In this document: positions 1,826-62,797 of the stretch, in pieces
Position numbering within the stretch: position 1 is the first letter of the stretch
Layout of the letters: each line of letters starts with the position of its first letter
Assembly: GCA_036012155.1 (NCBI GenBank)
Contig: DASCOT010000236.1
Coordinates: 40,655-104,654, forward strand
Length of the DNA: 64,000 nt
Source: Acidobacteriota bacterium
GTDB lineage: Bacteria > Acidobacteriota > UBA890 > WLXD01
Reading direction: 5' to 3'
Made by a program: the position numbers and the translations under genes
Notes under the pieces: model-generated
Database searches by the model: none
What the model saw: the letters and a program-made list of their open reading frames with translations, nothing else
Told to the model about the DNA's origin: nothing

Positions 1826-1978
1826 GGGAGTCTCCGGCTAGCCGCGGAGAATGAGCTCGCCGCGATCGATCTTGCCGAGGTGCGTGCGGGGAAAGTTCTC
1901 CGGCAACTCTACCTCGCGCGCGTACTCATGCGCCTCGAAGCCACCCCCGAAGGTGATCTGGTGGGCCTCCGCCGCCGG

Positions 1979-2794
1979 TCAGCAGATCCGGTAGTCGCCG
2001 TCCGGAGCGATGGTCGGGAGCCTATAGCGCTTCCTGATCAGAAGCCGGTACAGCCTCGCATCGGTAGTCGCCAGTTTCTCCGGCGTGTTGAGCCTCCACT
2101 CGTGGCGAATCTGGTCGAACCGGCCGGGGAAGTCCTGTAAGCCAAGCAACGATGTCAGCCCCCAGTAGAAGTACTCGGTCGCCTGGCAAGAATAGTCACA
2201 GGTGACATCGTCATAGGTGTACCAGGCCGAATCCGAGTATTGCTCCGGAATCTGCAGGAGATGCCCGCCGCGGGCGATGTCCATCGCCTTGGCGAGCTTG
2301 GTTCCGGCCCGTTCTCCCCAGATCCGTGGATATGCTCGAGCCAGGCCCACGTGTGAGATCAGGTGGAGCACCTCCTCGAGGGAAGCGTCGAATCGACCCT
2401 TGGCGGCCCCTCCGGGGTACGTCTCCGCCGCCGCCACGTCCTGAAGCTCGATGGCATCCGACGTCTCGTCGTCAACCGCCTCGAAGAACGCCTCCGTCTC
2501 GCGTGAATCGGCGAACATCACCATCGAGGCGCGGGCCGCGAGCAACTTTCTCAACACTCGTTTGTTGTCCACAGCACCGTCTGCGTCGTTGTCCAGGTAC
2601 TGAGCCAGCACGTTGGCGACGTGAAGCAGCTTTCCCCTCGGGACCGGTGGGGTGGCGTAGATTCGAACTCCGAAGACGTCTACTTGGCGATCGAAAGCGG
2701 CCGCGAAGCCGGTCGGCGCGTCGTCGGACAAGGCGGTGATTTTGAAAGCACCTGCCGCTCGCACCGGAGTCGCCGACACTAGCATCGTGATCAT
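1979..2794 (-). CDS. Secreted hypothetical protein
   Basis: Long ORF 1979..2905; likely start at MITMLVSATPVRAAG signal peptide; no recognisable family. Confidence 0.4.
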   Translation of the reverse strand: MITMLVSATPVRAAGAFKITALSDDAPTGFAAAFDRQVDVFGVRIYATPPVPRGKLLHVANVLAQYLDNDADGAVDNKRVLRKLLAARASMVMFADSRETEAFFEAVDDETSDAIELQDVAAAETYPGGAAKGRFDASLEEVLHLISHVGLARAYPRIWGERAGTKLAKAMDIARGGHLLQIPEQYSDSAWYTYDDVTCDYSCQATEYFYWGLTSLLGLQDFPGRFDQIRHEWRLNTPEKLATTDARLYRLLIRKRYRLPTIAPDGDYRIC

Positions 2795-31730: not shown

Positions 31731-34421
31731 GTGACTTCCCCACCCCATCGGTACCGCGCTGTCGAACTGCCGACCGTCTATCGGCACGTGCTGTGGTGGG
31801 CTGCTCGGTTGGTTCCACGCCTGCGGCGTCCCAGCTGGAGGCGCGAGTGGGAGGCCGAGATGACCTACGCCTACAGCCGCGCGGTGGCCGATGAGCGTGG
31901 CACGAAGCACCTGTTCGCCCGCGCCTTGTGGGCACACATCGACGCCCTCTGGGTATGGAAAGAGGAGTTCACCATGAGACGCGCGCTCGCCGATGTACGC
32001 CTTGCCCTGCGCAGCCTCCGTCACAGTCCGCTGTTCGCCGGCGCCGCAGTTCTCACACTGGCCCTCGGTATTGGCGCCAACACGGCGATCTTCTCAGTGG
32101 TCAACGCGGTCTTGCTGAAGCCGTTGCCGTTCCCGGAACCGGACAGGCTGGTGATGGTGCTGTACGAGGCGCCCGGCATCGGCTTCCCGAGGGTGCCGTT
32201 TTCGGAAGGTTCGTACGTTTTCGTGAATGACAACCAGCAGGCGTTCGAGTCACTCGGAATGCACACCGAGGAGCGCGTGAACATCGTTGGAGATGAGGAG
32301 CCGGAGCAGGTAGCAGGCGCGCGGATCACGCCTTCGGTGCTGCACGCGCTGCGGGTGTTGCCGTCGATCGGCCGCCCGTTTACCGACGCCGACGCCGCTC
32401 CTGGAGCAGAGCCTGTCGCCCTACTCGCGCGCCAGCTGTGGGAGCGCCGATACGGTGCGGACGAGTCGATCGTCGGCCAAACCGTGGAGCTCGACGGCAT
32501 CATGCGCCGCATCGTCGGCATCATGCCGGAAGGGTTCATGTATCCGTCCGAGGAGACCCGTGTGTGGCGACCGCTCGAGCTCGACCCCGCCAACCTCGAC
32601 GAGGGATCATTCAACGTACCCGGCATCGGCCGCCTGGCGCCCGGGGTGACCCTCGAGATGGCTTTCGAAGAATAGGCTGCCCTGGTAGCTCGGTTCAGCG
32701 AGGCGCTGCCCGACACCTTCTCGGAGGCGACACTCGAGCAGGCGCGCTTCGCGCCACTGCTCACGCCACTCAAGGAAATGGTCGTTGGTGATATCAGGCG
32801 GGCACTGTGGGTCGTTCTGGGCACCGTCGGCCTTGTCCTGTTGATCGCCTGCGCCAACGTTGCCAACCTCTTCCTGGTACGAGCTGAATCCAGACGGCGT
32901 GAGGTAACGCTGCGAGCCGCTCTGGGCGCCCGCCGAGTCGACTTGGCACGGTTCTTCCTGACCGAGAGCATGTTGCTGTCGTGCGGCGGCGGTATCGTCG
33001 GGCTTGGCGCGGCGCTGGCAGCGGTGCGCGGCTTCTCCAGCGCCACCCCGGTATCGATCCCGCGAGTCAACGCGATCACTGTCGATACCACGGTCTTGTT
33101 GTTCACTCTCAGCACGTCGTTGATTGCCGGCCTGCTATTTGGCTGCGTGCCCTTGCTTCGCAGCCGCAGCGGCGACATTGCCATGCGGCTTCGAGAGGGC
33201 AGCCGCGGTGCCACGACGGGAAGCCGAGCGCTTGGAATGCGCAATGTGCTGGTCGTGGCGCAAGTGGCACTCGCACTGGTGCTGTTGGTTGGATCAGGCC
33301 TCATGATCCGCAGCTTCCGCGCGTTGCGCAGCGTGGATCCTGGTTTCGAGTCCGCGGACGTGCTGACGGTGCGGCTCGCTCCGCCGGGCGCCGAATACCC
33401 GCACGCGGAGCAGCGGGCCGTTTTCTGGGAAGCGATCCTCGAGCGCGTCGCGACGATACCGCGCGTCGTATCCGTATCGGCAACGTCTCACTTGCCGCTC
33501 AGTGGCAGGATCTCGTCAGGCGACATCAGCATTGAAGATCATCCGAGACAAGACGATGCACTGCCGCCGCTCGCCGACCGCCGAGCCGTTCCCCCCGACT
33601 TCTTCGCCACCCTGGGTATCCCGGTGCTCGAGGGTCGCGAGTTCGTCGCCACGGACGCCGCCGACAACTACCGTGCCGCGGTTGTGAGCGAGTCACTGGC
33701 GCGCCACTGGTGGCCCAACGAGAGTGCCCTGGGCAAGCGCATTGGCGAGAGTGAAGAGGAGGAGTGGTATCAGATCGTCGGTGTGGTGGGGGACGTGCGA
33801 CACGAATCCCTCGAGAAGCCGACGGCAGAGACCGCGTACTTCCCTTTGCGGTCGGGGCCTATCGATGAGATCAGCGTCCCGGGCGGGATGGATCTGGTAG
33901 TGAGAGCCGTTGGCGATCCTGACGCGCTCGCGACGGCCGTCCGCAACGCGATATGGGAAATCGATCCACGGCTGCCGATCGCCAACATGCAACCATTGGA
34001 TCGAATCGTCAGCGATTCGCTGTCGCGTACCTCGTTCACCCTGCTGATGCTCGGCATCGCCGCCGGAGTGGCCCTGCTGCTCGGAGCCATAGGGATCTAC
34101 GGCGTGATCTCCTACATCGTCAGCCAGCGCACTCAGGAGATTGGCGTGCGCATCGCGCTGGGATCCTCGCGAGGCGGCGTTCAGGCGATGGTCGTTCGTC
34201 GGGGCCTCGTTCTGGCCGCCGTCGGGATTGTCATCGGCCTGGGGGCGGCAGTCGCGGTAAGTCGTGTGTTGACGTCGCTGCTGTACGAGGTCAATAGCAA
34301 CGACCCGACGACCTACGCCGGCGTCGCAGCGGTCCTCGGACTGGTGGCGCTGGTCGCCAGCTGGCTGCCGGCAATTCGTGCCTCGAGCGTCGACCCGGTC
34401 GTTGCATTGCGGGCCGATTGA
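31731..34421 (+). pseudogene. ADOP-family (duplicated FtsX/MacB-like) ABC permease with permease-prefix domain, interrupted by in-frame TAG at 32673-32675
   Basis: Two same-frame ORFs (31347..32675, 32778..34421) with continuous ADOP homology across the stop ([32 protein letters not shown]...; ...[31 protein letters not shown]...); AGGAGA-N6-GTG start at 31731. Confidence 0.65.
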
Positions 34422-50445: not shown

Positions 50446-50637
50446 GTGATGTGCACCGACCCATGGGGCACGGCTTGGGTCTACCACACCGACGGCAAGC
50501 ACTTCGTCCTCGCGTCACTCGGTTCCGATGGCGCCCGCGGCCCCAAGCCGCCGCAGAACTGGAGGAACGACGTCTTCGAGCCGGATTTGATCCTACGTGA
50601 TGGCAGCCTCATCCAGGCTCCGCAGACCAGATCGTAG
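50446..50637 (+). pseudogene. Type II secretion pseudopilin GspG C-terminal remnant (N-terminal prepilin helix absent)
   Basis: DPWGTAWVYHTDGKHFVLASLGSDGARG resembles GspG C-terminus (DPWGNPY-Y-----F-L-SLGADG-EGG); in-frame stop 18 nt upstream, no prepilin motif found in any frame nearby. Confidence 0.35.
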
Positions 50638-55161: not shown

Positions 55162-58100
55162 GCGGCGCGATCGCCTGGTTCGCCCGCAACCGCGTCGCTG
55201 CGAACCTGCTCATGGCGTTCGTTCTCGGCGCCGGTGTGATGACGGTCAGCAGGGTGCCGCAGGAGGTCTTCCCGGAGTTCGCCCTCGACCTTATCCAGGT
55301 AACCGTGCCCTATCTGGGCGCCGCCCCCGAAGAGGTCGAGCAGGGGGTCAACGTAAGGATCGAGGAGGCAGTCCAGGGCATCGACGGCATCAAGAAAGTG
55401 ACCTCCACGGCCGCGGAGGGCAACGGCACCGTGATGATCGAGCTCGAAATCGACGCCGATGCGCGCAAGGTTCTCGACGACATCAAGACCAACGTCGATG
55501 CTATCGAGACCTTCCCGCAGGAGACCGAGAAGCCGATCATCCGCGAGCTCACCAACCGTCGGCAGGTGGTCGATGTGGCGATCTTCGGCGACACCGATGA
55601 GCTCTCGCTCAAGCACCTCGCCGAGCGCGTGCGCGACGAGATCGCGGCATTGCCCGAGATCACGCAGGTAGAGGTCGCCAACGCGCGCCCCTACGAGGTA
55701 ACGATCGAGATCTCTGAGGACGCGCTGCGCCGCCACGGCATCACCTTCGATTTCGTAGCCAACGCGGTGCGACGATCGTCGATGGATCTGCCCGGCGGGT
55801 CGGTCAAGACCGACGGTGGCGAGATTCTGCTGCGCACCATGGGCCAGGCCTATACGGGGGATGAGTTCGACAGGCTGGTGCTGTTGACGAGGCCGGATGG
55901 CACACACCTTCAGCTGGGCGATATCGCCAGGGTGGTTGACGGATTCGCCGACACCGACCAGATCTCACGCTTCGACGGCAAGCCGGCGATGCTGGTGAAG
56001 GTCTACCGTACCGGTCGCCAACGGGCTCTCGACGTGGCGGGCGCGGTCAACGGCTACGTCGAGGGAGCACGCGACCGGATGCCAGCGGGCATTGCGCTGA
56101 CCACCTGGCAGGACCAGTCGCGGGTGCTGCGAGATCGTCTCGATATGCTGCTCCGGAATGGCCGCGTCGGGTTCGCGCTCGTCTTCCTGTCGCTGGCTCT
56201 GTTCCTGCGACTGCGACTGGCGTTCTGGGTGAGCCTGGGCATACCGGTCAGCTTCCTGGGGGCGATCTGGCTGATGCCGGGGTTGGACGTGTCGGTGAAC
56301 CTGATGTCGTTGTTCGCTTTCATCCTCGTGCTCGGAATGGTCGTTGATGACGCCATCGTGGTGGGCGAGAACATCTACACGCATCAGCAACGGCACGACG
56401 ATCCCCTTCGCGCGGCGATCGAGGGCACGCGCGAGGTTTCCAAACCGGTGGTTTTCGCGATTCTCACCAGCATGGCTGCGTTCGCACCGCTGCTCGCGGT
56501 GCCCGGTGTGATCGGCAAGATCATGGTGACTGCGCCGCTCATCGTGATCTCGTGCCTGACGTTCTCGTTGGTCGAGTCGCTGTTCATCTTGCCGGCGCAT
56601 CTGTCGCACCGACGGCGCCGCCCGGCAAAGGAGCGCGGCCTCTGGTTTCGCTTGCAGCGCAAGATCTCGGGGGGATTGCACTGGCTCATCGAGAATGTCT
56701 ACGAGCCGGCTCTTCAGGTGGGGTTGCGTTGGCGCTATCTCACTGTTGCGATCGGCGTAGCGACGCTGCTCGTCACGCTGGGTCTAGTTAGCGCCGGCTT
56801 CGTGCGCTTCATCTTCATGCCCGACATCGAGGCCGACTTCGTCATCATGTCGCTGACGATGCCGCAGGGCACACCGGTAGAGGTCACGTCCTCGACCGTC
56901 CGACATATCGAGGAAAGCTCCGAGCGCTTGCGGCAGGAGATCATCGACGACTTCGGCAACGACGCCTTCGTGCACACGTTCGCGGCGATCGGTGCCCAGC
57001 CGATGCAGGCGGCCCAACGCTCGGGGTTCGGCAATGTCGAGATCAGCGGCTCGACGGCCCACCTCGCTGAGGTAACCATCGAGCTCACCCCCGCCGAAAG
57101 CCGCGAAACGGTGTCCAGTGAGTGGGTCGCCAACCGATGGCGCGACCTCACCGGGACCATTCCGGACGCCGTCAGGGTCAACGTCACCGCGTCGTTGTTC
57201 ACAGTCGGAGACGACATCAACATCCAGTTCACCGGCCTCGATCTCGACGCCCTCACCGCTGCGGCGGACATGCTCAAGGATCGTCTCGGCGACTACGACG
57301 GCGTTTACGAGATCAGCGATACCTTCGTGGAAGGCAAGCGCGAGCTGAAGCTCGACATCAAGCCGCAGGCCGAGATCCTCGGATTGACGCTGTCTGACCT
57401 CGGTCGGCAGGTGCGCCAGGCGTTCTACGGCGAAGAAGCGCAGCGCATCCAGCGCGGCCGCGATGACGTTCGCGTAATGGTGCGGTATCCGCAGCAACAG
57501 CGTCGCTCGATCGGCAATCTCGAGGCGATGCGGATCCGCACACCGGGTGGCGCAGAGGTGCCATTCGGTCAGGTGGCAACGGTCGAGCAGGGTCGCGGGT
57601 ACTCGACCATCGAACGGGTGGATCGAAGTCGCGCAGTGAGCGTTACCGCGTCGGTCAACCGTGCCGTCGCTACGCCCGGAAGTATCAACACCGACCTGGC
57701 GAGTACGGTGCTGCCGCAGATCGCCGCTGCCATTCCTGACGTCCGGTTCTCGTTCGAAGGGCAAGCCGCGGAGCAGCGTGACACCACGGGAGGCTTGGTG
57801 CGGGGCTTCGCACTGGCGCTGATCGCCATCTTCGGACTGCTGGCCATCCCGCTGCGCTCCTATGTGCAACCGCTGATCATCATGGCCGCGATCCCCTTCG
57901 GGCTCGTGGGCGCGGTTTGGGGCCACATCATCGTGGGGCTCGACCTGACCATCCTGTCGATGTTCGGTGTCGTTGCTCTCGCCGGTGTCGTGGTCAACGA
58001 CAGCCTGGTCCTGGTGGACTACATCAATCGTCTACTCGAAACCGCCGACGATGTGCGGGGCGCGGTGCTGGAAGCCGGCCGAGCAAGGTTCAGGCCGATC

Positions 58101-58379
58101 CTGTTGACCTCGCTGACGACCTTCGCCGGGCTGCTACCGATGATCCTGGAGAAGAGCTTGCAGGCGCAGTTCTTGATTCCGATGGCCGTATCGCTGGCGT
58201 TCGGCGTGCTCTTTGCCACCTTTGTCATCCTCGCCCTCGTCCCGTGCAGCTACATGATCGTCGACGACGTTCAGAGGCTCCCGGAGAGGTTGCGTGACTG
58301 GCGGCAGCGGAGCGCCGCTGATCTCGGCGAGCCCAGCGAGGACGTGATCGTAGGCCGTCGAAACCCCGCCGCTGGTTGA
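55158..58379 (+). CDS. RND efflux transporter permease (AcrB/CzcA/HAE family)
   Basis: 1073 aa, 12-TM architecture with two large periplasmic loops, conserved TM4 D-containing segment. Confidence 0.9.
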   Translation: MSGAIAWFARNRVAANLLMAFVLGAGVMTVSRVPQEVFPEFALDLIQVTVPYLGAAPEEVEQGVNVRIEEAVQGIDGIKKVTSTAAEGNGTVMIELEIDADARKVLDDIKTNVDAIETFPQETEKPIIRELTNRRQVVDVAIFGDTDELSLKHLAERVRDEIAALPEITQVEVANARPYEVTIEISEDALRRHGITFDFVANAVRRSSMDLPGGSVKTDGGEILLRTMGQAYTGDEFDRLVLLTRPDGTHLQLGDIARVVDGFADTDQISRFDGKPAMLVKVYRTGRQRALDVAGAVNGYVEGARDRMPAGIALTTWQDQSRVLRDRLDMLLRNGRVGFALVFLSLALFLRLRLAFWVSLGIPVSFLGAIWLMPGLDVSVNLMSLFAFILVLGMVVDDAIVVGENIYTHQQRHDDPLRAAIEGTREVSKPVVFAILTSMAAFAPLLAVPGVIGKIMVTAPLIVISCLTFSLVESLFILPAHLSHRRRRPAKERGLWFRLQRKISGGLHWLIENVYEPALQVGLRWRYLTVAIGVATLLVTLGLVSAGFVRFIFMPDIEADFVIMSLTMPQGTPVEVTSSTVRHIEESSERLRQEIIDDFGNDAFVHTFAAIGAQPMQAAQRSGFGNVEISGSTAHLAEVTIELTPAESRETVSSEWVANRWRDLTGTIPDAVRVNVTASLFTVGDDINIQFTGLDLDALTAAADMLKDRLGDYDGVYEISDTFVEGKRELKLDIKPQAEILGLTLSDLGRQVRQAFYGEEAQRIQRGRDDVRVMVRYPQQQRRSIGNLEAMRIRTPGGAEVPFGQVATVEQGRGYSTIERVDRSRAVSVTASVNRAVATPGSINTDLASTVLPQIAAAIPDVRFSFEGQAAEQRDTTGGLVRGFALALIAIFGLLAIPLRSYVQPLIIMAAIPFGLVGAVWGHIIVGLDLTILSMFGVVALAGVVVNDSLVLVDYINRLLETADDVRGAVLEAGRARFRPILLTSLTTFAGLLPMILEKSLQAQFLIPMAVSLAFGVLFATFVILALVPCSYMIVDDVQRLPERLRDWRQRSAADLGEPSEDVIVGRRNPAAG

Positions 58380-58414
58380 GTCTCGGTCTTGTCCCGCGGG
58401 TTCCAGCGCTAGCG

Positions 58415-59332
58415 TCAGCAACCACGCAGAGCCAACAGCAGGATCGCCAGCACCACGACGATACCGCCGACAATGAGAGTCGTCCGGTTCCGCGCCGTAG
58501 CTTGCACGCGCGCGGCGGCTCCTTCGCCGATCCTTCCCTGCAGAGCGGGCACCCGCAGCTCGAGGTCATCCAGCGCTGCAACCAAAGCGCGTGGGTCAGC
58601 GAAGCGCTCGCGCGGGTTCTCTGCGAGACAACGCAGAATCAACGGGTCGATCTCGGGCGGCACTTCGCCGCGTACCTGACTCGGAATACGAAACCCGCCA
58701 ACCGGCAGAGTTCCGGTGAGCAGCTCGTAGCCAACGACACCCAACGAGTACACGATCGATTGTTGATCCGGCGCAGCGTCAGGGGTAGCCATGCGCTCGG
58801 GCGCCAGGTAGCGCACCGCTCCGAGCGAGTGCAGCGTTGCGGTGGAGCCTGCATCCATTCCCGCCGGCGCCATCGGCATGCCGACGTCGATGACCTTCAC
58901 AGCGTGACCTTCGCCGTGGACGAGGATGCGATCCGGATCGACGCCTTCACAAGGCAAGCCCTTGCCGTGCGCATGTCCAAGGGCTCTGGCGGTGCCACGC
59001 AGCACGTCGATCACGTCGTGCGTGTCGAGGCGCCGGTGCGCCAGTACCTTGCGAAGCGACGAGCCCTTCACGAACTCCATCGCGGCGTAGGCGCGGTCCT
59101 CGTGCTCACCGCAATCGAGCACGTCGACGACGTTCTCGTGGTCGAGATCTCTGGTAGCCGTCAGGATCTCGAGACGTCGAGCGCGCACGGCTTCCGGCTC
59201 GCCGGCCGGTTACAGCAGGATGGCAACGGCGCCTCCGCCATCGCCAGCCGCCTTATAGACCTCGCTCTGCCCGCCTTCGTCGAGCCTCGCCTCGACCTTG
59301 TAGCCACCGATCCTCTCGGGTATCTCAGTCAT
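58415..59332 (-). pseudogene. Ser/Thr protein kinase-like gene with in-frame TAA at 59210-59212 and degenerate catalytic motifs (pseudokinase-like)
   Basis: Minus-strand translation MTEIPERIGGYKVEARLDEGGQSEVYKA...AVAILL*PAGEPEAV..HENVV...YAAMEFVKG...DVG...APE: kinase N-lobe and C-lobe in one frame split by TAA; HRD replaced, DFG is DVG; start ATG overlaps FHA gene stop. Confidence 0.6.
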
Positions 59333-60629
59333 CGATCTCGATCACCAGGGTCACAGCACCGACCCGCAGCTTGTCGAAGTCATTCAAGACGACGCTATCG
59401 CTATCCACGGGCTCATCGTTGAGCCGCGTCCCGTGAGTGCTGCCGAGGTCTCGAACGCGGAATTCATCATCTTCCTACAGGATGGACAAATGTCGCTTGC
59501 TGGCAGCCGGGTCGGAGAGGACGAGGTCACATTCGGGATCGCGCCCCACCACGAGGTCGCCGGCACCGAGCTCGAGTGAGTCCTCGCGACCGGTTCCCTC
59601 ACTAACGACAAGTCGAGCCGGCGGCGGAGAGCCTGGGTCGCGAGTCGAGCGATCGGGCGGCGAGATCTCGAGGGTGCGGATCGGGAACGGAATGACGATG
59701 TCGTTGCGACGGAACTGTTCCCAGATTTGGGTGCGCAGAGCGCTCTCGATCCGCCGCAGCGGGCCCATGTCGTCCACCCAGGAGCGCAGCTCATAGGTGA
59801 TCGAGCTCTCGTCGAAGTTGTTCACGTAGACCTCGGCGCTCGGTCGCGCCAGCACACCGTCTACCTGACCGGCGGCCGCGAGCATCGCCGCCTTGACCTT
59901 GTGGGGCGGGGTGAGGAAATGCGCCCCGACATAGATCCGAGACATGTGTAGCGGATGTGGATACAGATAGTTGGTGAGGGTCTCCCTCGCCATGTTGGCG
60001 TTGGGGAAGATCACCGTGTCGTTCTGGCGCGTACGGATCGACGTGGTGCGCCAGGTGATCTGCGTTACCCGTCCCTCGTGCTCCCCCACCTGAATCCAAT
60101 CGTTGATACGGAACGGCCGCTCGAGCGCGATCACGACCCCGGCAAAGAAGTTTGTCAGGATCGGCTGCAGCGCCAGACCCAGGACCAAGGAGGTAACGGC
60201 GCTGGTGGCGAGCAGCGGCCCGACATTCGTATCCGGAAACGCCACCGTCACGATGGCCGCTCCGGAAACGGCGTAGATAAAGAAGCGCGTGACCCGCGGC
60301 AACAGCGGCGGCACCTCGATGTCCCATTGGCGCCTCAGCAGGACCTCGTAGCCGAGGTAGGTAACACCGCGGATCACCATCACGATGAGGAAGAACCAGA
60401 TGATCGCTGCCAACACGCCGACGCCGCGATCCATGTCGCCGACTCCCGCCACGTTGGCAATCGCAACGCCGAGAGCAAACGCCACTAGCGAGACGGGCAG
60501 TCCGAGCGCTCGCATGGCCGGGTAGCGGCGGCGCAGAGCAAGAAGCGCGACGTAGACCACCGCTGCGGGCACGCCTCCGGCGACCAACGTCGCCGCCAGG
60601 CTCCCACTGAAGTCGCTCGGCATGAGCAC
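59325..60629 (-). pseudogene. MscS-family mechanosensitive channel fused to C-terminal FHA domain, interrupted by in-frame TAG at 59475-59477
   Basis: MscS core (TM helices, beta domain) then FHA start LVVGRDPECDLVLSDPAASKRHLSIL, TAG, then same-frame FRVRDLGSTHGTRLNDEPV...VTLVIEIDD completing the FHA domain. Confidence 0.65.
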
Positions 60630-60701
60630 CTTCCCTCGCAGGCCGTGGTGGATGTGGTGGACGTGTAGCGGCGCGATTCTAGAGCGTCCGGCGTCTGGAC
60701 A

Positions 60702-60733
60702 CTACTCGCTGCGCGACGCTACTCGCTGTGCGA
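60702..60733. repeat. Tandem 17-bp direct repeat CTACTCGCTG(C/T)GCGA x2 upstream of MscS-FHA operon
   Basis: Read directly in 117-nt intergenic region 60630-60745. Confidence 0.5.
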
Positions 60734-60745
60734 GGACAGCTCGGC

Positions 60746-61720
60746 TCAGTCGAGCAGGCCGTGCTCGCCCATCCAAGACTCGTTGAGCTTCGACAGGTAA
60801 CGCTCACCGGAGTCAGGCAGCAAGGTCACCACCAGTGCGTCATCGGCGGCGCCGCGCGCTACGCGCCGTGCCCCGACGACCGCCGCCCCGCCTGACGAAC
60901 CGGTAAAGATCGCCTCGGTACGGGCCAACTCGAGGACAGCACGATAGGCGTCCGGATCGTCCACCGTGATCACCTCGTCGATGTAATCCCACCACACGGT
61001 CTCGGGCATGAAGTCCTCGCCGATACCGTCGATCAGATACTGGTGGATCTGCTCCTCCGGCGGCATCTCACCGTGGTCTTTGTAGTAGGCGTAGATCGAA
61101 CCCACGGTGTCCACACCCACGACTCGGACATCGGCGTTCTGCTCCTTCAGATACTTGGCCGTGCCGCTGATCGTGCCGCCGGTTCCCATCCCGGTGACCC
61201 AGTGGGTGATGCGCCCCTCGGTCTGTCGCCAGATCTCCGGGCCGGTCGTGAGGTAGTGAGCCTGTGGATTCGCCTGGTTGTAGTACTGGTAGGGCAGATA
61301 GGCGCCCTCTTCGTCGCGCAGCCGCTCGGCGACCTTGTAGTAGGAACGCGGATCGTCGGCGTCCACCTCGGTAGGACAGAGGATCACCTCCACACCGAAA
61401 GCCTGCAGCAGCGCCACCTTCTCCTTGGGAATCTTGTCGGCCGCGGTACAGACCATCCGGTAGCCCTTGAGGATGGCGGCCATGGCCAGGCCCAGGCCGG
61501 TATTGCCGGAGGTCGGCTCGACGATCGTGCCGCCCGGCTGTAGCTGCCCGGATTCTTCCCCGGCGGCGATCAGCGGCGGCCCGATACGGTCCTTGACGCT
61601 CGATCCCGGGTTGAACGATTCGATCTTGGCGACGAGCTCCGCACCTTGCGGCCAGAAGCGCCGCAGGCGCACCAACGGCGTGTCACCGAGCGCTCCCAGG
61701 ATGTCGTCGAGAATCTCCAC
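60746..61720 (-). CDS. Cysteine synthase / cystathionine beta-synthase family PLP enzyme (CysK/CysM-like)
   Basis: PLP-lysine motif NPGSSVKDRIG, glycine-rich loop PTSGNTGLGLAM; probable GTG start at 61720 giving 324 aa. Confidence 0.75.
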   Translation of the reverse strand: MEILDDILGALGDTPLVRLRRFWPQGAELVAKIESFNPGSSVKDRIGPPLIAAGEESGQLQPGGTIVEPTSGNTGLGLAMAAILKGYRMVCTAADKIPKEKVALLQAFGVEVILCPTEVDADDPRSYYKVAERLRDEEGAYLPYQYYNQANPQAHYLTTGPEIWRQTEGRITHWVTGMGTGGTISGTAKYLKEQNADVRVVGVDTVGSIYAYYKDHGEMPPEEQIHQYLIDGIGEDFMPETVWWDYIDEVITVDDPDAYRAVLELARTEAIFTGSSGGAAVVGARRVARGAADDALVVTLLPDSGERYLSKLNESWMGEHGLLD

Positions 61721-61806
61721 CAGCTCGCTGCTCCAAGTACCGCCGGCGGCGGAAGTTGCGGGTATAGTGGCCCCCTGACCACACTCCCGCCAGGCAACGG
61801 CCAGGG

Positions 61807-62175
61807 TTGGGGGCAAGTTACCACGTCAGCCGGGAGCGCATTGTCGTGCGCAACCCACCGAGCGACATCGGTCCGGCGGAGTTGATCGAGCGCCTTGGCG
61901 GACCAAAGGAGACGATCATTCTCGACGTGCGCTCCGCCTGGGAATATCGTCGGGGGCACCTGCCCGGAGCCCGGCGCACCCCGCTCTGGAAGGCACTCCT
62001 GGCATCAACCGCTGCGTCGTTGCGAGGCTCCACCGAGATCGTCGCCTATTGCGATCTGGGTCCACGAGCCTGGCTGGCGCGCGCGTTCCTGGAGCGCCGT
62101 GGCATCGGCGTTCGACTGTTGCGCGGCCACATGTCGCGCTGGCGACGGCGGCGGTTACCGCTCGCGGACAAGTAG
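61807..62175 (+). CDS. Rhodanese-like domain sulfurtransferase
   Basis: ILDVRSAWEYRRGHLPGA and active-site loop CDLGPRA (Cys-containing CX4-5R loop). Confidence 0.6.
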   Translation: MGASYHVSRERIVVRNPPSDIGPAELIERLGGPKETIILDVRSAWEYRRGHLPGARRTPLWKALLASTAASLRGSTEIVAYCDLGPRAWLARAFLERRGIGVRLLRGHMSRWRRRRLPLADK

Positions 62176-62185
62176 CCGGTGGCGG

Positions 62186-62797
62186 CTAGTCGAGCAGCCC
62201 GAGGTTGCGAAGTTGTTCCGGCGGGCAGCCTCTCCAGCGCGAGACGTACTCGTTGCCCATGTACTCGAGGTCCTCGATGCCCATCTTGCTGGTCCAGAAC
62301 CCAGTCGCCGTAAGATCGCGGAAGGCGTTGAAGAAGGCCACGCCGTGGCGCAGCTCGTGTGGCGCACCGGCCGGCCAGGCGATGGCATCGAGCAGTTGCT
62401 CCCGCTGCGTCGCGCCGCAGGCGACAAGGCGCTCCCCGTAGCGATCATGCGCCTGGCGGTCGAGCCAGGCGAGCCCGCCGCGCATTGCTACCTGGCGCTC
62501 CGGCTGGTCGGCCATCATGAAATCCATGAACTCCGGCACGCCCGCCTCTGTGGCGCTTCCAGAGCGCTCATCAGCGGGAATGATGATGTCGACCAGCTGC
62601 TCCACCGTAGCGTACTCGTGCGCCGTGAAGAACTGCGGCACGTAGCTGTCCCCGCGCTGCGCGGCCTCCTGCAGGGCGGCCGCCGCGCGCTCGCTCGCCA
62701 GCACGGCCTGGGCCGGTGACCATGCCAAGCTGGCCGTCGCGGATGCGAGCAGGCCGAGTGCCTCGCGGCGGCTCAGGTCAGGCGTCCGTCGACCCAT
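62186..62797 (-). CDS. Gluconate 2-dehydrogenase subunit 3-like protein with Tat signal
   Basis: Twin-arginine motif SRREALGLLASATASLAWSP; family-typical small subunit preceding a GMC flavoprotein. Confidence 0.65.
   Translation of the reverse strand: MGRRTPDLSRREALGLLASATASLAWSPAQAVLASERAAAALQEAAQRGDSYVPQFFTAHEYATVEQLVDIIIPADERSGSATEAGVPEFMDFMMADQPERQVAMRGGLAWLDRQAHDRYGERLVACGATQREQLLDAIAWPAGAPHELRHGVAFFNAFRDLTATGFWTSKMGIEDLEYMGNEYVSRWRGCPPEQLRNLGLLD

What the first reader, a model, noticed from the sequence alone, without database searches (positions are those of the whole stretch)
58415..59332. Adjacent Ser/Thr kinase gene has in-frame TAA and degenerate catalytic motifs
The N-lobe (IGGYKVEARLDEGGQSEVYKA...AVAILL) and C-lobe (HENVV...YAAMEFVKG...DVG...APE) lie in one frame separated by TAA 59210-59212. 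In addition the beta3 Lys is Leu, the HRD motif is missing, and DFG is DVG, so even without the stop it reads as a pseudokinase. Together with the FHA partner this suggests an FHA-kinase signalling pair gating a mechanosensitive channel that is decaying or being regulated by readthrough.
Basis: seen in the sequence. Interest (0 to 1): 0.5.

Follow-up and report, generated by a model that had tools for sequence, protein, structure and literature searches.

The report
Broken pseudokinase partner of FHA-MscS channel
The kinase-like gene really has a premature stop, and so does the phosphothreonine-binding tail of the mechanosensitive-channel gene upstream; both are recent knock-outs, fixed across this species, of a widely conserved two-gene module whose kinase partner is normally catalytically dead.

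Summary
On the minus strand, 59332..58415 is one kinase-fold reading frame broken by TAA at 59212..59210. The beta3 Lys is Leu39, HRD is CEG and DFG is DVG.

Intact 305-aa orthologues have an invariant Tyr at the stop, so it is not a gene boundary. The upstream, 8-nt-overlapping MscS-FHA gene is also broken, by TAG at 59477..59475, which replaces a nearly invariant Trp inside the FHA domain.

Both stops occur in at least 23 contigs from at least 10 public datasets, so they are real and fixed in this species. TAG and TGA end ordinary genes here, so the genetic code is standard.

The degenerate catalytic motifs are not decay. All close orthologues share them under purifying selection (dN/dS 0.11-0.23). 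In 62 of 62 metagenomic loci an MscS-FHA gene is followed by a kinase-like gene. Short tail-anchored partners are pseudokinases. Long receptor-type partners mostly keep K/HRD/N/DFG.

Verdict: this is a recently inactivated copy of an apparently undescribed FHA-MscS plus pseudokinase module. Decay is supported. Readthrough is not. The stop itself is ordinary; the module is moderately interesting.

The parts
58415..59332 (-). Tail-anchored pseudokinase gene. It would encode 305 aa if read through and is interrupted at codon 41. The ATG is at 59332..59330 and the terminal TGA at 58417..58415.
   Evidence: Translation. Pfam Pkinase matches across the stop. Intact 305-aa orthologues are 66-81% identical.
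59210..59212 (-). In-frame TAA replacing Tyr41, which is TAT or TAC in the orthologues.
   Evidence: Tyr41 is invariant in 6 orthologues. The same stop is present in at least 23 contigs.
59216..59218 (-). Leu39 at the beta3 VAIK-lysine position.
   Evidence: This position is K, T or L in close orthologues, so the Lys is not conserved in the clade.
59264..59284 (-). Degenerate glycine-rich loop, LDEGGQS.
58919..58957 (-). Degenerate catalytic loop LPCEGVDPDRILV. HRD is CEG, the catalytic-loop Lys is Asp, and the Asn is Arg.
   Evidence: The same sequence is found in orthologues P0001-P0004.
58880..58888 (-). DVG in place of DFG. The Asp is retained.
58835..58843 (-). Activation-loop Thr164-Ala-Thr166, a candidate phospho-acceptor and FHA docking site.
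   Evidence: The two Thr align with the TQT of PknA in the profile alignment to PDB 4x3f. T164 and T166 are invariant in 6 orthologues. Thr is found at these columns in 44 and 37 of 62 partners.
58430..58486 (-). C-terminal hydrophobic helix (RTTLIVGGIVVVLAILLLA), followed by only LRGC. This is a tail anchor.
   Evidence: The same architecture is seen in the short partners of 62 loci.
58415..59188 (-). Residual 257-aa ORF from GTG 59188. This is what gene callers report, and it lacks beta1-beta3 of the N-lobe.
59325..60623 (-). MscS-like channel gene with a C-terminal FHA domain. It would encode 432 aa if read through and is interrupted at codon 383. The ATG is at 60623 and the terminal TGA at 59327..59325.
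   Evidence: Pfam finds MS_channel_2nd, MS_channel_3rd and FHA. Intact orthologues are 430 aa.
59475..59477 (-). In-frame TAG replacing Trp383, which is TGG in five orthologues.
   Evidence: Trp is nearly invariant in 26 homologues.
59358..59552 (-). FHA domain, split by the TAG. Arg361, Ser375 and His378 lie upstream of the stop. Ser395, Thr399 and Asn402 lie downstream.
59325..59332 (-). 8-nt overlap between the end of the MscS-FHA gene and the start of the pseudokinase gene (ATGACTGA), an arrangement that allows translational coupling.
   Evidence: The same overlap is called in L002-L004 and L087-L091.

Best explanation
The locus is a two-gene module. The first gene is an MscS-type mechanosensitive channel whose cytoplasmic C-terminus ends in an FHA (phosphothreonine-binding) domain. 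The second overlaps it by 8 nt and encodes a 305-aa kinase-fold protein anchored in the membrane by a C-terminal helix.

Shown:
- In this clade the kinase-fold protein is a conserved pseudokinase. It has no HRD Asp and no catalytic-loop Asn, and its beta3 Lys is variable. It is kept under purifying selection.
- In the species sampled by the window, both genes have been knocked out by single-base nonsense substitutions at conserved codons: TGG to TAG at Trp383 in the FHA domain, and TAY to TAA at Tyr41 of the pseudokinase.
- Both alleles are fixed across all public contigs of the species.
- They are recent relative to the divergence from the nearest intact orthologues.
- They have been followed by further non-synonymous changes at conserved residues.

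Inferred for the intact module:
- The seven FHA domains under the MscS heptamer dock on the tail-anchored partner. The most likely site is a phosphorylated activation-loop Thr (T164/T166). This Thr would be autophosphorylated in the long, catalytically intact receptor-kinase versions and phosphorylated in trans by another Ser/Thr kinase in the pseudokinase versions.
- This docking alters channel gating or localisation.

Inferred for this species:
- The TAG removes half of the FHA domain but leaves the channel core (382 aa).
- The TAA leaves a 40-aa peptide.
- So the regulatory pair is lost, and the channel is either unregulated or also on the way to loss.
For: Anatomy and stops.

Intact orthologues have Tyr and Trp at the two stop sites.

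The stops are real and fixed. The exact 33-nt contexts are present in L001 and L092. The exact 257-aa residual ORF is on at least 23 contigs from at least 10 datasets, and the contigs that extend far enough upstream also show the 382-aa and 40-aa gene calls.

The code is standard. TAG and TGA terminate many well-supported ORFs in the window, and there is no tRNA in the window.

The pseudokinase state is conserved and selected. Pairwise dN/dS is 0.11-0.23 for the pseudokinase and 0.07-0.15 for MscS-FHA among intact orthologues. Pairs that include the window give the same range, so the window branch is not accelerated.

There has been decay since the stops. The only three SNPs inside the two genes among 11 contigs are all non-synonymous (MscS G68V, MscS G347E, pseudokinase Q19E). 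At each of the three the window carries the derived allele; Gly347 is conserved in all five orthologues, Gly68 in four of five, while codon 19 is Gln or Lys. L092 keeps the ancestral residues yet already has both stops.

The module has been lost independently in relatives. In L093 an IS3-family insertion leaves MscS residues 1-246 and no FHA or pseudokinase. In L085/L086 the pseudokinase is cut at residue 167.

The module is conserved. There is synteny in L002-L004 and L087-L091 and in Thermoanaerobaculia. In the metagenome scan, 62 of 62 loci have a kinase-like ORF starting within a few tens of nt of the MscS-FHA end.

Architecture tracks catalytic state. All 41 short partner ORFs (39 tail-anchored plus two 218-aa ORFs with no TM found) lack at least one catalytic residue. 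Six of the 10 long receptor-type partners keep all four.

The FHA pThr-pocket residues are invariant or nearly so in 26 homologues. T164/T166 align with the activation-loop TQT of PknA.
Against: No experiment or expression data exist for this module. The FHA-pseudokinase contact, its dependence on phosphorylation and any effect on gating are inferred from gene linkage, conserved residues and analogy.

The evidence for relaxed selection after the stops rests on only three SNPs.

The broken genes contain no frameshift or second stop, and the window branch shows no excess dN. This fits a very recent knock-out, but it would also fit continued use by readthrough.

The window holds three nonsense-interrupted genes and I saw no frameshifted gene. 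That is a slightly odd spectrum for plain decay, although frameshifts were not screened systematically.
Confidence: 0.8

Rival explanations
1. Programmed readthrough or nonsense suppression. Under this reading the TAA and TAG are decoded at some frequency, full-length FHA-MscS and pseudokinase are still made, and the stops tune expression.
For: Both ORFs are otherwise intact, with no frameshift or second stop. The window branch shows no raised dN/dS. The nonsense alleles are fixed in every contig of the species. A third gene in the window, an ADOP permease, carries a fixed in-frame TAG. No frameshifted gene was noticed in the window.
Against: - TAA is read by both release factors and is the least leaky stop.
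- The stops replace three different conserved residues: Tyr, Trp and Gln.
- Orthologues have sense codons at these sites, so no recoding site is conserved.
- No significant structure lies downstream (z-scores -0.6 to -1.6).
- TAG and TGA are normal terminators in the window.
- There is no suppressor tRNA in the window.
- Derived non-synonymous changes at conserved Gly residues arose after the stops.
- Relatives lose the module outright.
Confidence: 0.05
2. Sequencing or assembly artefact. Under this reading the stops are errors in one assembly and the real genes are intact.
For: Single-base substitutions can arise in low-coverage or long-read assemblies. Some related long-read contigs do show likely errors, for example L086, where MscS is called at 267 aa against 430 aa in L085.
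Against: The identical stop contexts are present in short-read scaffolds, Logan unitig assemblies and NCBI metagenome assemblies from at least 10 samples and several accession series. These contigs differ from the window at a few SNPs, so they are not copies of a single assembly.
Confidence: 0.01
3. Two separate genes. Under this reading the TAA is a normal terminator of a small upstream gene, and the C-lobe ORF is an independent gene.
For: Gene callers report a 40-aa ORF and a 257-aa ORF.
Against: One Pfam Pkinase match spans the stop. All orthologues have a single 305-aa ORF with Tyr at that codon. The 257-aa product would lack beta1-beta3 of the kinase fold.
Confidence: 0.01
4. Adaptive shedding rather than neutral decay. 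Under this reading, loss of the FHA-pseudokinase brake was selected, and the 382-aa channel core remains a working, now unregulated, MscS.
For: The TAG lies after the complete channel core: the TM region, beta-domain and C-terminal domain are all upstream. Both hits fall on the regulatory parts. The alleles are fixed species-wide. Relatives also lose the regulatory part (L085: pseudokinase only).
Against: The window haplotype has since gained G68V at a Gly conserved in 4 of 5 orthologues in the channel's membrane part. In L093 the loss also removes the channel's C-terminal domain. The low diversity of the species means fixation could simply reflect clonality.
Confidence: 0.25

Closest known systems
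Mycobacterium tuberculosis PknA / PknB kinase domains (PDB 4x3f, 1mru and others)
   Same: These are the closest solved relatives by sequence profile (E about 1e-31). They share the fold, APE, the alphaC Glu and the activation-loop TxT. From my own knowledge, not tested here: the phosphorylated PknB activation loop recruits the FHA protein GarA (Villarino et al. 2005).
   Different: The window protein lacks the beta3 Lys, the HRD Asp and the catalytic-loop Lys and Asn. It has no PASTA or other extracellular domain and is tail-anchored with 3-4 residues outside the membrane.
EssB/YukC pseudokinase with the FHA domains of EssC/YukB (type VIIb secretion)
   Same: This is a membrane-anchored bacterial pseudokinase whose cytoplasmic pseudokinase domain binds the FHA domains of a membrane partner encoded nearby (PMC9600267).
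   Different: It belongs to a different family. Pfam finds only Pkinase and PK_Tyr_Ser-Thr in the window protein, with no YukC-type match. The partner is an FtsK-like ATPase, not an ion channel. YukC also has a sizeable extracellular domain.
Rv1747 ABC transporter (two FHA domains) with the kinase PknF in one operon
   Same: This is a membrane transporter that carries FHA domains, is encoded next to a Hanks-type kinase and is regulated by Thr phosphorylation (PMC3138270).
   Different: PknF is catalytically active. The FHA-bearing protein is an ABC exporter, not an MscS channel. The long partners found resemble this case more than the window's pseudokinase does.
MviN (Rv3910) pseudokinase domain with FhaA
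   Same: A catalytically dead kinase domain on a membrane protein is phosphorylated in trans by PknB and then recruits an FHA protein. This is from my own knowledge (Gee et al. 2012) and was not checked here.
   Different: In MviN the pseudokinase is fused to the transporter and the FHA protein is separate. Here the FHA domain is fused to the channel and the pseudokinase is separate.
The seven bacterial pseudokinase families of the bacterial STK atlas (CP1, DYD, DLHK, GLW, ActPs1-3)
   Same: These are conserved bacterial Pkinase-homologous families that lack the VAIK Lys, the HRD Asp and/or the DFG Asp (bioRxiv 10.1101/2025.01.12.632604).
   Different: The text of that paper does not mention mechanosensitive channels or MscS, and its only mention of FHA concerns the CCM1 family. 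I could not test whether the window clade falls in one of these families, because their profiles are not available here.
MscS-family channels with an added C-terminal regulatory domain (for example the cyclic-nucleotide-binding bCNG channels)
   Same: They have an MscS core with an extra cytoplasmic ligand-binding domain that modulates gating. This is from my own knowledge.
   Different: Here the added domain is an FHA domain and comes with a dedicated partner protein. I found no paper describing this in the library.

Membership tests
Catalytically active Hanks-type Ser/Thr kinase | Sequence homology to the Pkinase domain above the curated threshold | tested here: met
   PF00069 scores 73.6 bits against a cut-off of 31.7, E 2.2e-20. 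PknA/PknB match at E about 1e-31.
Catalytically active Hanks-type Ser/Thr kinase | beta3 VAIK lysine | tested here: not met
   Leu39. The position is K, T or L in close orthologues.
Catalytically active Hanks-type Ser/Thr kinase | HRD catalytic Asp and catalytic-loop Asn | tested here: not met
   The loop reads LPCEGVDPDRILV: Asp is Gly130 and Asn is Arg135.
Catalytically active Hanks-type Ser/Thr kinase | DFG metal-binding Asp | tested here: met
   DVG: Asp149 is kept and Phe is Val.
Catalytically active Hanks-type Ser/Thr kinase | GxGxxG glycine-rich loop | tested here: not met
   DEGGQS.
Bacterial pseudokinase (kinase fold lacking at least one of Lys/Asp/Asp) | Kinase fold, missing catalytic residues, and conservation under purifying selection | tested here: met
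   Motifs. dN/dS is 0.11-0.23 among intact orthologues. ATP binding was not testable.
MscS-FHA-linked tail-anchored pseudokinase clade (defined here) | Gene starts at or overlaps the end of an MscS-FHA gene | tested here: met
   8-nt overlap in the window. Partner present in 62 of 62 loci, with starts mostly within -16 to +47 nt of the MscS-FHA end.
MscS-FHA-linked tail-anchored pseudokinase clade (defined here) | About 305-350 aa, with a C-terminal TM helix followed by no more than about 5 residues | tested here: met
   TM at residues 283-301, then LRGC. 38 of the 39 short partners with a TM have 1-5 residues after it, and one has 30.
MscS-FHA-linked tail-anchored pseudokinase clade (defined here) | Uninterrupted reading frame | tested here: not met
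   TAA at codon 41. The window copy is a nonsense pseudogene of this clade.
EssB/YukC (T7SSb pseudokinase) | Match to the YukC/EssB family and a T7SS gene neighbourhood | tested here: not met
   Pfam returns only Pkinase and PK_Tyr_Ser-Thr. The neighbours are PALP, MscS-FHA and AcrB. The relationship is a functional analogy only.
Programmed stop-codon readthrough / recoding site | Stop codon conserved in orthologues | tested here: not met
   Orthologues have TAT/TAC and TGG.
Programmed stop-codon readthrough / recoding site | Stimulatory downstream RNA structure or a leaky stop context | tested here: not met
   z-scores are -1.56 and -1.17. The stops are TAA and TAG, not TGA.
Programmed stop-codon readthrough / recoding site | Full-length protein actually made | not testable with these tools
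   This needs proteomics or ribosome profiling of the organism.
Altered genetic code (TAG or TAA reassigned) | The codon is not used as a terminator in well-supported genes | tested here: not met
   About 20 ORFs with a coding signature in the window end in TAG, including the ACP_syn_III homologue.
MscS-family mechanosensitive channel | MscS beta-domain and C-terminal domain after TM helices | tested here: met
   PF00924 at E 5e-21 and PF21082 at E 8e-7. Channel activity was not testable.
Phosphothreonine-binding FHA domain | Conserved Gly-Arg, Ser-x-x-His and Ser/Thr...Asn pocket residues | tested here: met
   G360, R361, H378, S395, G398, T399 and N402 are invariant and S375 nearly so in 26 homologues. 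In the window the TAG separates the two halves of the pocket.

The most novel reading that the evidence does not exclude
The three fixed nonsense codons in otherwise intact genes (two TAG, one TAA in 64 kb) are tolerated because this species has efficient nonsense suppression or leaky termination. Under this reading, low levels of full-length FHA-MscS and pseudokinase are still made, and the stops act as expression dimmers on a phospho-regulated channel gate.
Probability: 0.05. Interest if true: 0.75.

Novelty: new variant of a known kind. Interest (0 to 1): 0.4.

Why it matters
The stop codon itself is an ordinary, recent pseudogenisation and would not surprise a specialist.

What the check uncovered around it is more useful. 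An MscS channel with a C-terminal FHA domain is always followed by a membrane-anchored Hanks-type partner (62 of 62 loci). This partner occurs in two forms: a long receptor kinase with intact catalytic residues, and a short tail-anchored pseudokinase.

I found no description of this pairing in the searchable literature and no curated NCBIfam model that reaches its cut-off.

If the inferred mechanism holds, it would be a direct link between Ser/Thr phospho-signalling and mechanosensitive-channel gating in bacteria. It would also be a clean natural series for studying how a kinase becomes a scaffold.

The natural knock-outs give ready-made loss-of-function comparisons. These are the double nonsense in this species, the IS insertion in L093 and the truncation in L085.

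Tried and rejected
- The genome-contig scan with the pseudokinase alignment used generic kinase patterns (YLAPERM, VYSLGV).
- The profile search of 1.84 billion representatives was dominated by multi-kinase-domain proteins whose scores add up. It yielded only five further family representatives and no usable family size.
- Cluster look-up gave no names, so taxonomy stays uncertain. The nearest named relatives of the channel are Acidobacteriota/Thermoanaerobaculia. Those of the ADOP permease include Gemmatimonadota.
- My first GC3-based screen for other in-frame stops was too strict and missed the two known ones. The relaxed screen found the ADOP case along with many false candidates, such as 36772, which is an antisense frame.
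- The in-frame 46-codon spacer at 1838-1981 was looked at and left unresolved.
- I considered and rejected a genetic-code change, selenocysteine or pyrrolysine (wrong codon, or TAG used as a terminator), an assembly artefact and a two-gene boundary.
- I did not run structure prediction. Sequence evidence for the fold was already decisive, and the tools do not offer complex prediction.

Full report
**1. The observation**

On the minus strand, 59332..58415 translates as one frame: MTEIPERIGGYKVEARLDEGGQSEVYKAAGDGGGAVAILL*PAGEPEAVRARRLEIL...LRGC*. The internal stop is TAA at 59212..59210.

Pfam Pkinase matches residues 11-213 in a single stretch that runs across the stop (E 2.2e-20, 73.6 bits against a cut-off of 31.7).
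- Leu39 sits at the VAIK lysine position.
- The catalytic loop reads LPCEGVDPDRILV where PknA/PknB have HRDxKPxN.
- DFG is DVG.

The glycine-rich loop is also degenerate (DEGGQS). The alphaC Glu55, the Asp of DVG and APE are kept.

**2.

The gene upstream (60623..59325, minus strand) is an MscS-type channel with a C-terminal FHA domain: MS_channel_2nd at E 5e-21 and FHA at E 2e-16. Its last 8 nt overlap the pseudokinase start (ATGACTGA). It carries its own in-frame TAG at 59477..59475, in the middle of the FHA domain (HLSIL*EDDEFRVRDLGSTHGT).

**3. Not a gene boundary**

A protein search found uninterrupted 305-aa orthologues at 66-81% identity (P0001-P0004). All have Tyr at the stop position (IKLYP or VTLYP). 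At the DNA level these codons are TAT or TAC, so TAA is one substitution away.

Orthologous channel genes are 430 aa and have TGG (Trp) where the window has TAG. That Trp is nearly invariant in 26 homologues.

**4. The stops are real and fixed**

Near-identical contigs carry both stops in exactly the same 33-nt contexts: L001, a short-read scaffold, and L092, a Logan assembly of SRR28208100.

The exact 257-aa residual ORF is on at least 23 contigs. They come from at least 10 datasets in several accession series: three GCA_0247 metagenome assemblies, six ERZ assemblies and two SRR runs. Every contig long enough to show it has the same 382-aa + 40-aa + 257-aa gene calls. These contigs differ from the window at a few SNPs, so they are not copies of one assembly. 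A sequencing artefact is excluded.

**5. The code is standard and there are no readthrough signals**

In the window about 20 ORFs with a coding signature end in TAG and about 30 end in TGA. ARAGORN finds no tRNA in the window. The 100 nt after each stop fold no better than shuffles (z -1.56, -1.17 and -0.64).

TAA is the stop least prone to readthrough (established knowledge). The stops replace three different conserved residues: Tyr, Trp, and Gln in the ADOP gene described in section 9.

**6. The degenerate motifs are the family state, not decay**

All close orthologues share PCEG and DVG. More distant partners from Thermoanaerobaculia loci have HGH or HGE. Five further family representatives all lack the HRD Asp.

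Nei-Gojobori dN/dS among intact orthologues is 0.11-0.23 for the pseudokinase, 0.07-0.15 for MscS-FHA and about 0.05 for the neighbouring PALP gene. Pairs that include the window fall in the same ranges.

A three-taxon split of dN (window, L087, L003) gives window branches of about 0.06 for the pseudokinase and 0.03 for the channel. These are no longer than its relatives' branches (computed from the values). So the protein family is functional, and the window's stops are recent.

**7. Decay after the stops, and parallel losses**

Over window 55415-62188, eleven contigs show only six clean SNPs. The three that fall inside the two broken genes are all non-synonymous: MscS G68V, MscS G347E and pseudokinase Q19E.

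At each of these the window has the derived allele. Gly347 is conserved in all five orthologues and Gly68 in four of five; pseudokinase codon 19 is Gln or Lys, so L092's Gln matches only L087 and L090. L092 keeps the ancestral residues but already has both stops. With dN/dS about 0.12, the chance that three of three SNPs are non-synonymous is roughly 0.02. Under neutrality it is about 0.4. This is my own estimate and the sample is small.

Relatives have lost the module in other ways:
- In L093 (92% identical channel) an IS3-family element leaves only MscS residues 1-246, with no FHA domain and no pseudokinase.
- In L085/L086 the pseudokinase stops at residue 167 and unrelated DNA follows.

**8. 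The module at large**

The pair, with its 8-nt overlap, is kept even where the flanking genes differ (L090, L091).

A metagenome scan with the MscS-FHA alignment returned 80 loci. All 62 that have at least 600 nt downstream contain a kinase-like ORF. In the 51 complete ORFs the start lies mostly between -16 and +47 nt of the channel gene's end.

Among those 51 complete partner ORFs:
- 41 are short. Of these, 39 are 309-347 aa with a TM helix followed by 1-5 residues (30 in one case), and two are 218-aa ORFs in which no TM helix was found. All 41 lack at least one catalytic residue, and 40 of the 41 lack the HRD Asp.
- 10 are long (620-683 aa, with a TM helix near residue 300 and 290-360 residues beyond it). 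Six of these keep the Lys, HRD, Asn and DFG.

The likely history, which is an inference, is a receptor kinase paired with an FHA-channel, followed by loss of the outer domain and of catalysis while the partner protein was retained.

The FHA pThr-pocket residues (Gly-Arg361, Ser375, His378, Ser395, Thr399, Asn402) are invariant or nearly so. The partner's Thr164 and Thr166 are invariant in the six orthologues. They align with the TQT of the PknA activation loop.

On this basis I propose that the FHA domain docks on a phosphorylated activation loop, autophosphorylated in the active forms and phosphorylated in trans in the pseudokinase forms. A phospho-independent contact, as reported for YukC-YukB (PMC9600267), is the alternative. 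None of this has been tested experimentally.

**9. Context**

A third gene in the window, an ADOP-type MacB_PCD/FtsX permease, has an in-frame TAG at 32673-32675 where an 81% identical orthologue has Gln. Its split form is on 21 contigs.

The other apparent gaps in the gene map hold intact genes: RidA-like, GNAT, ABC ATPase, Ada/MGMT, PNP and CopC, identified by reading the translations. That makes about 3 of roughly 58 genes nonsense-interrupted. I did not screen for frameshifts systematically.

**10. Comparison with known systems, and verdict**

The closest solved relatives are PknA and PknB. Functional analogues are:
- EssB/YukC with EssC/YukB;
- Rv1747 with PknF (PMC3138270);
- MviN with FhaA and PknB with GarA (the last two from memory, not checked here).

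The bacterial STK atlas lists seven pseudokinase families but does not mention MscS. No NCBIfam model reaches its cut-off for either protein. Literature searches found no paper on an FHA-MscS/kinase pair.

The finding as stated is a confirmed, ordinary and recent pseudogenisation. The module it belongs to is a new variant of the known FHA/Hanks-kinase pairing. It deserves moderate interest.

Noticed in passing
window 32673-32675 (+), within the gene at about 31965-34421: A third nonsense-interrupted gene. It is an ADOP-type permease (MacB_PCD + FtsX, 815 aa if read through) with an in-frame TAG where an 81% identical orthologue has Gln. The split form (271 + 547 aa) is on 21 public contigs, so it is also fixed in the species.
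   Followed up: partly
loci L112-L191 (metagenome scan): The partners of MscS-FHA fall into two classes. The first is short pseudokinases: 39 tail-anchored ORFs of 309-347 aa plus two 218-aa ORFs without a detected TM helix. The second is long receptor-type proteins of 620-683 aa with an Ala/Pro-rich linker and a helical, TPR-like outer domain. Six of the 10 long ones keep all catalytic residues and none of the 41 short ones does.
   Followed up: partly
L093:10001-12000: In a 92% identical relative, an IS3-family element (HTH_Tnp_1 + rve) truncates the MscS gene after residue 246. The FHA domain and the pseudokinase are absent. A second transposase (IS481-like) lies about 2 kb upstream.
   Followed up: partly
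L085:6001-7239 and L086: In another relative the pseudokinase ends at residue 167 (...GSTNIFT). It is followed by about 730 nt without a called gene and then a DUF5916 gene instead of AcrB. This is a rearrangement or deletion.
   Followed up: no
window 50446-50637 (+): A 63-aa ORF (MMCTDPWGTAWVYHTDGKHFVLASLGSDGARG...) looks like the C-terminal part of a GspG-type pseudopilin without its N-terminal leader and helix. It may be a gene remnant in a 520-nt gap between two minus-strand genes. The resemblance is judged by eye only.
   Followed up: no
window 1838-1981 (-): A 46-codon stretch with coding-like GC3 lies in frame between two minus-strand ORFs of 324 aa and 354 aa. It is bounded by TGA (1981..1979) and TAG (1840..1838). 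It may be ordinary spacing or another read-through-looking junction.
   Followed up: no
window, whole: TAG terminates roughly 40% of the ORFs with a coding signature, which seems high for a 65% G+C genome where TGA usually dominates. All three disrupted genes found carry nonsense substitutions, and no frameshifted gene was noticed, although frameshifts were not screened systematically.
   Followed up: partly
window 55415-62188 against L001, L092, L103-L111: The species is almost clonal across at least 10 samples, with six clean SNPs in 6.8 kb. L105 has a cluster of mismatches at 60800-60846 that looks like a scaffold-junction artefact.
   Followed up: partly
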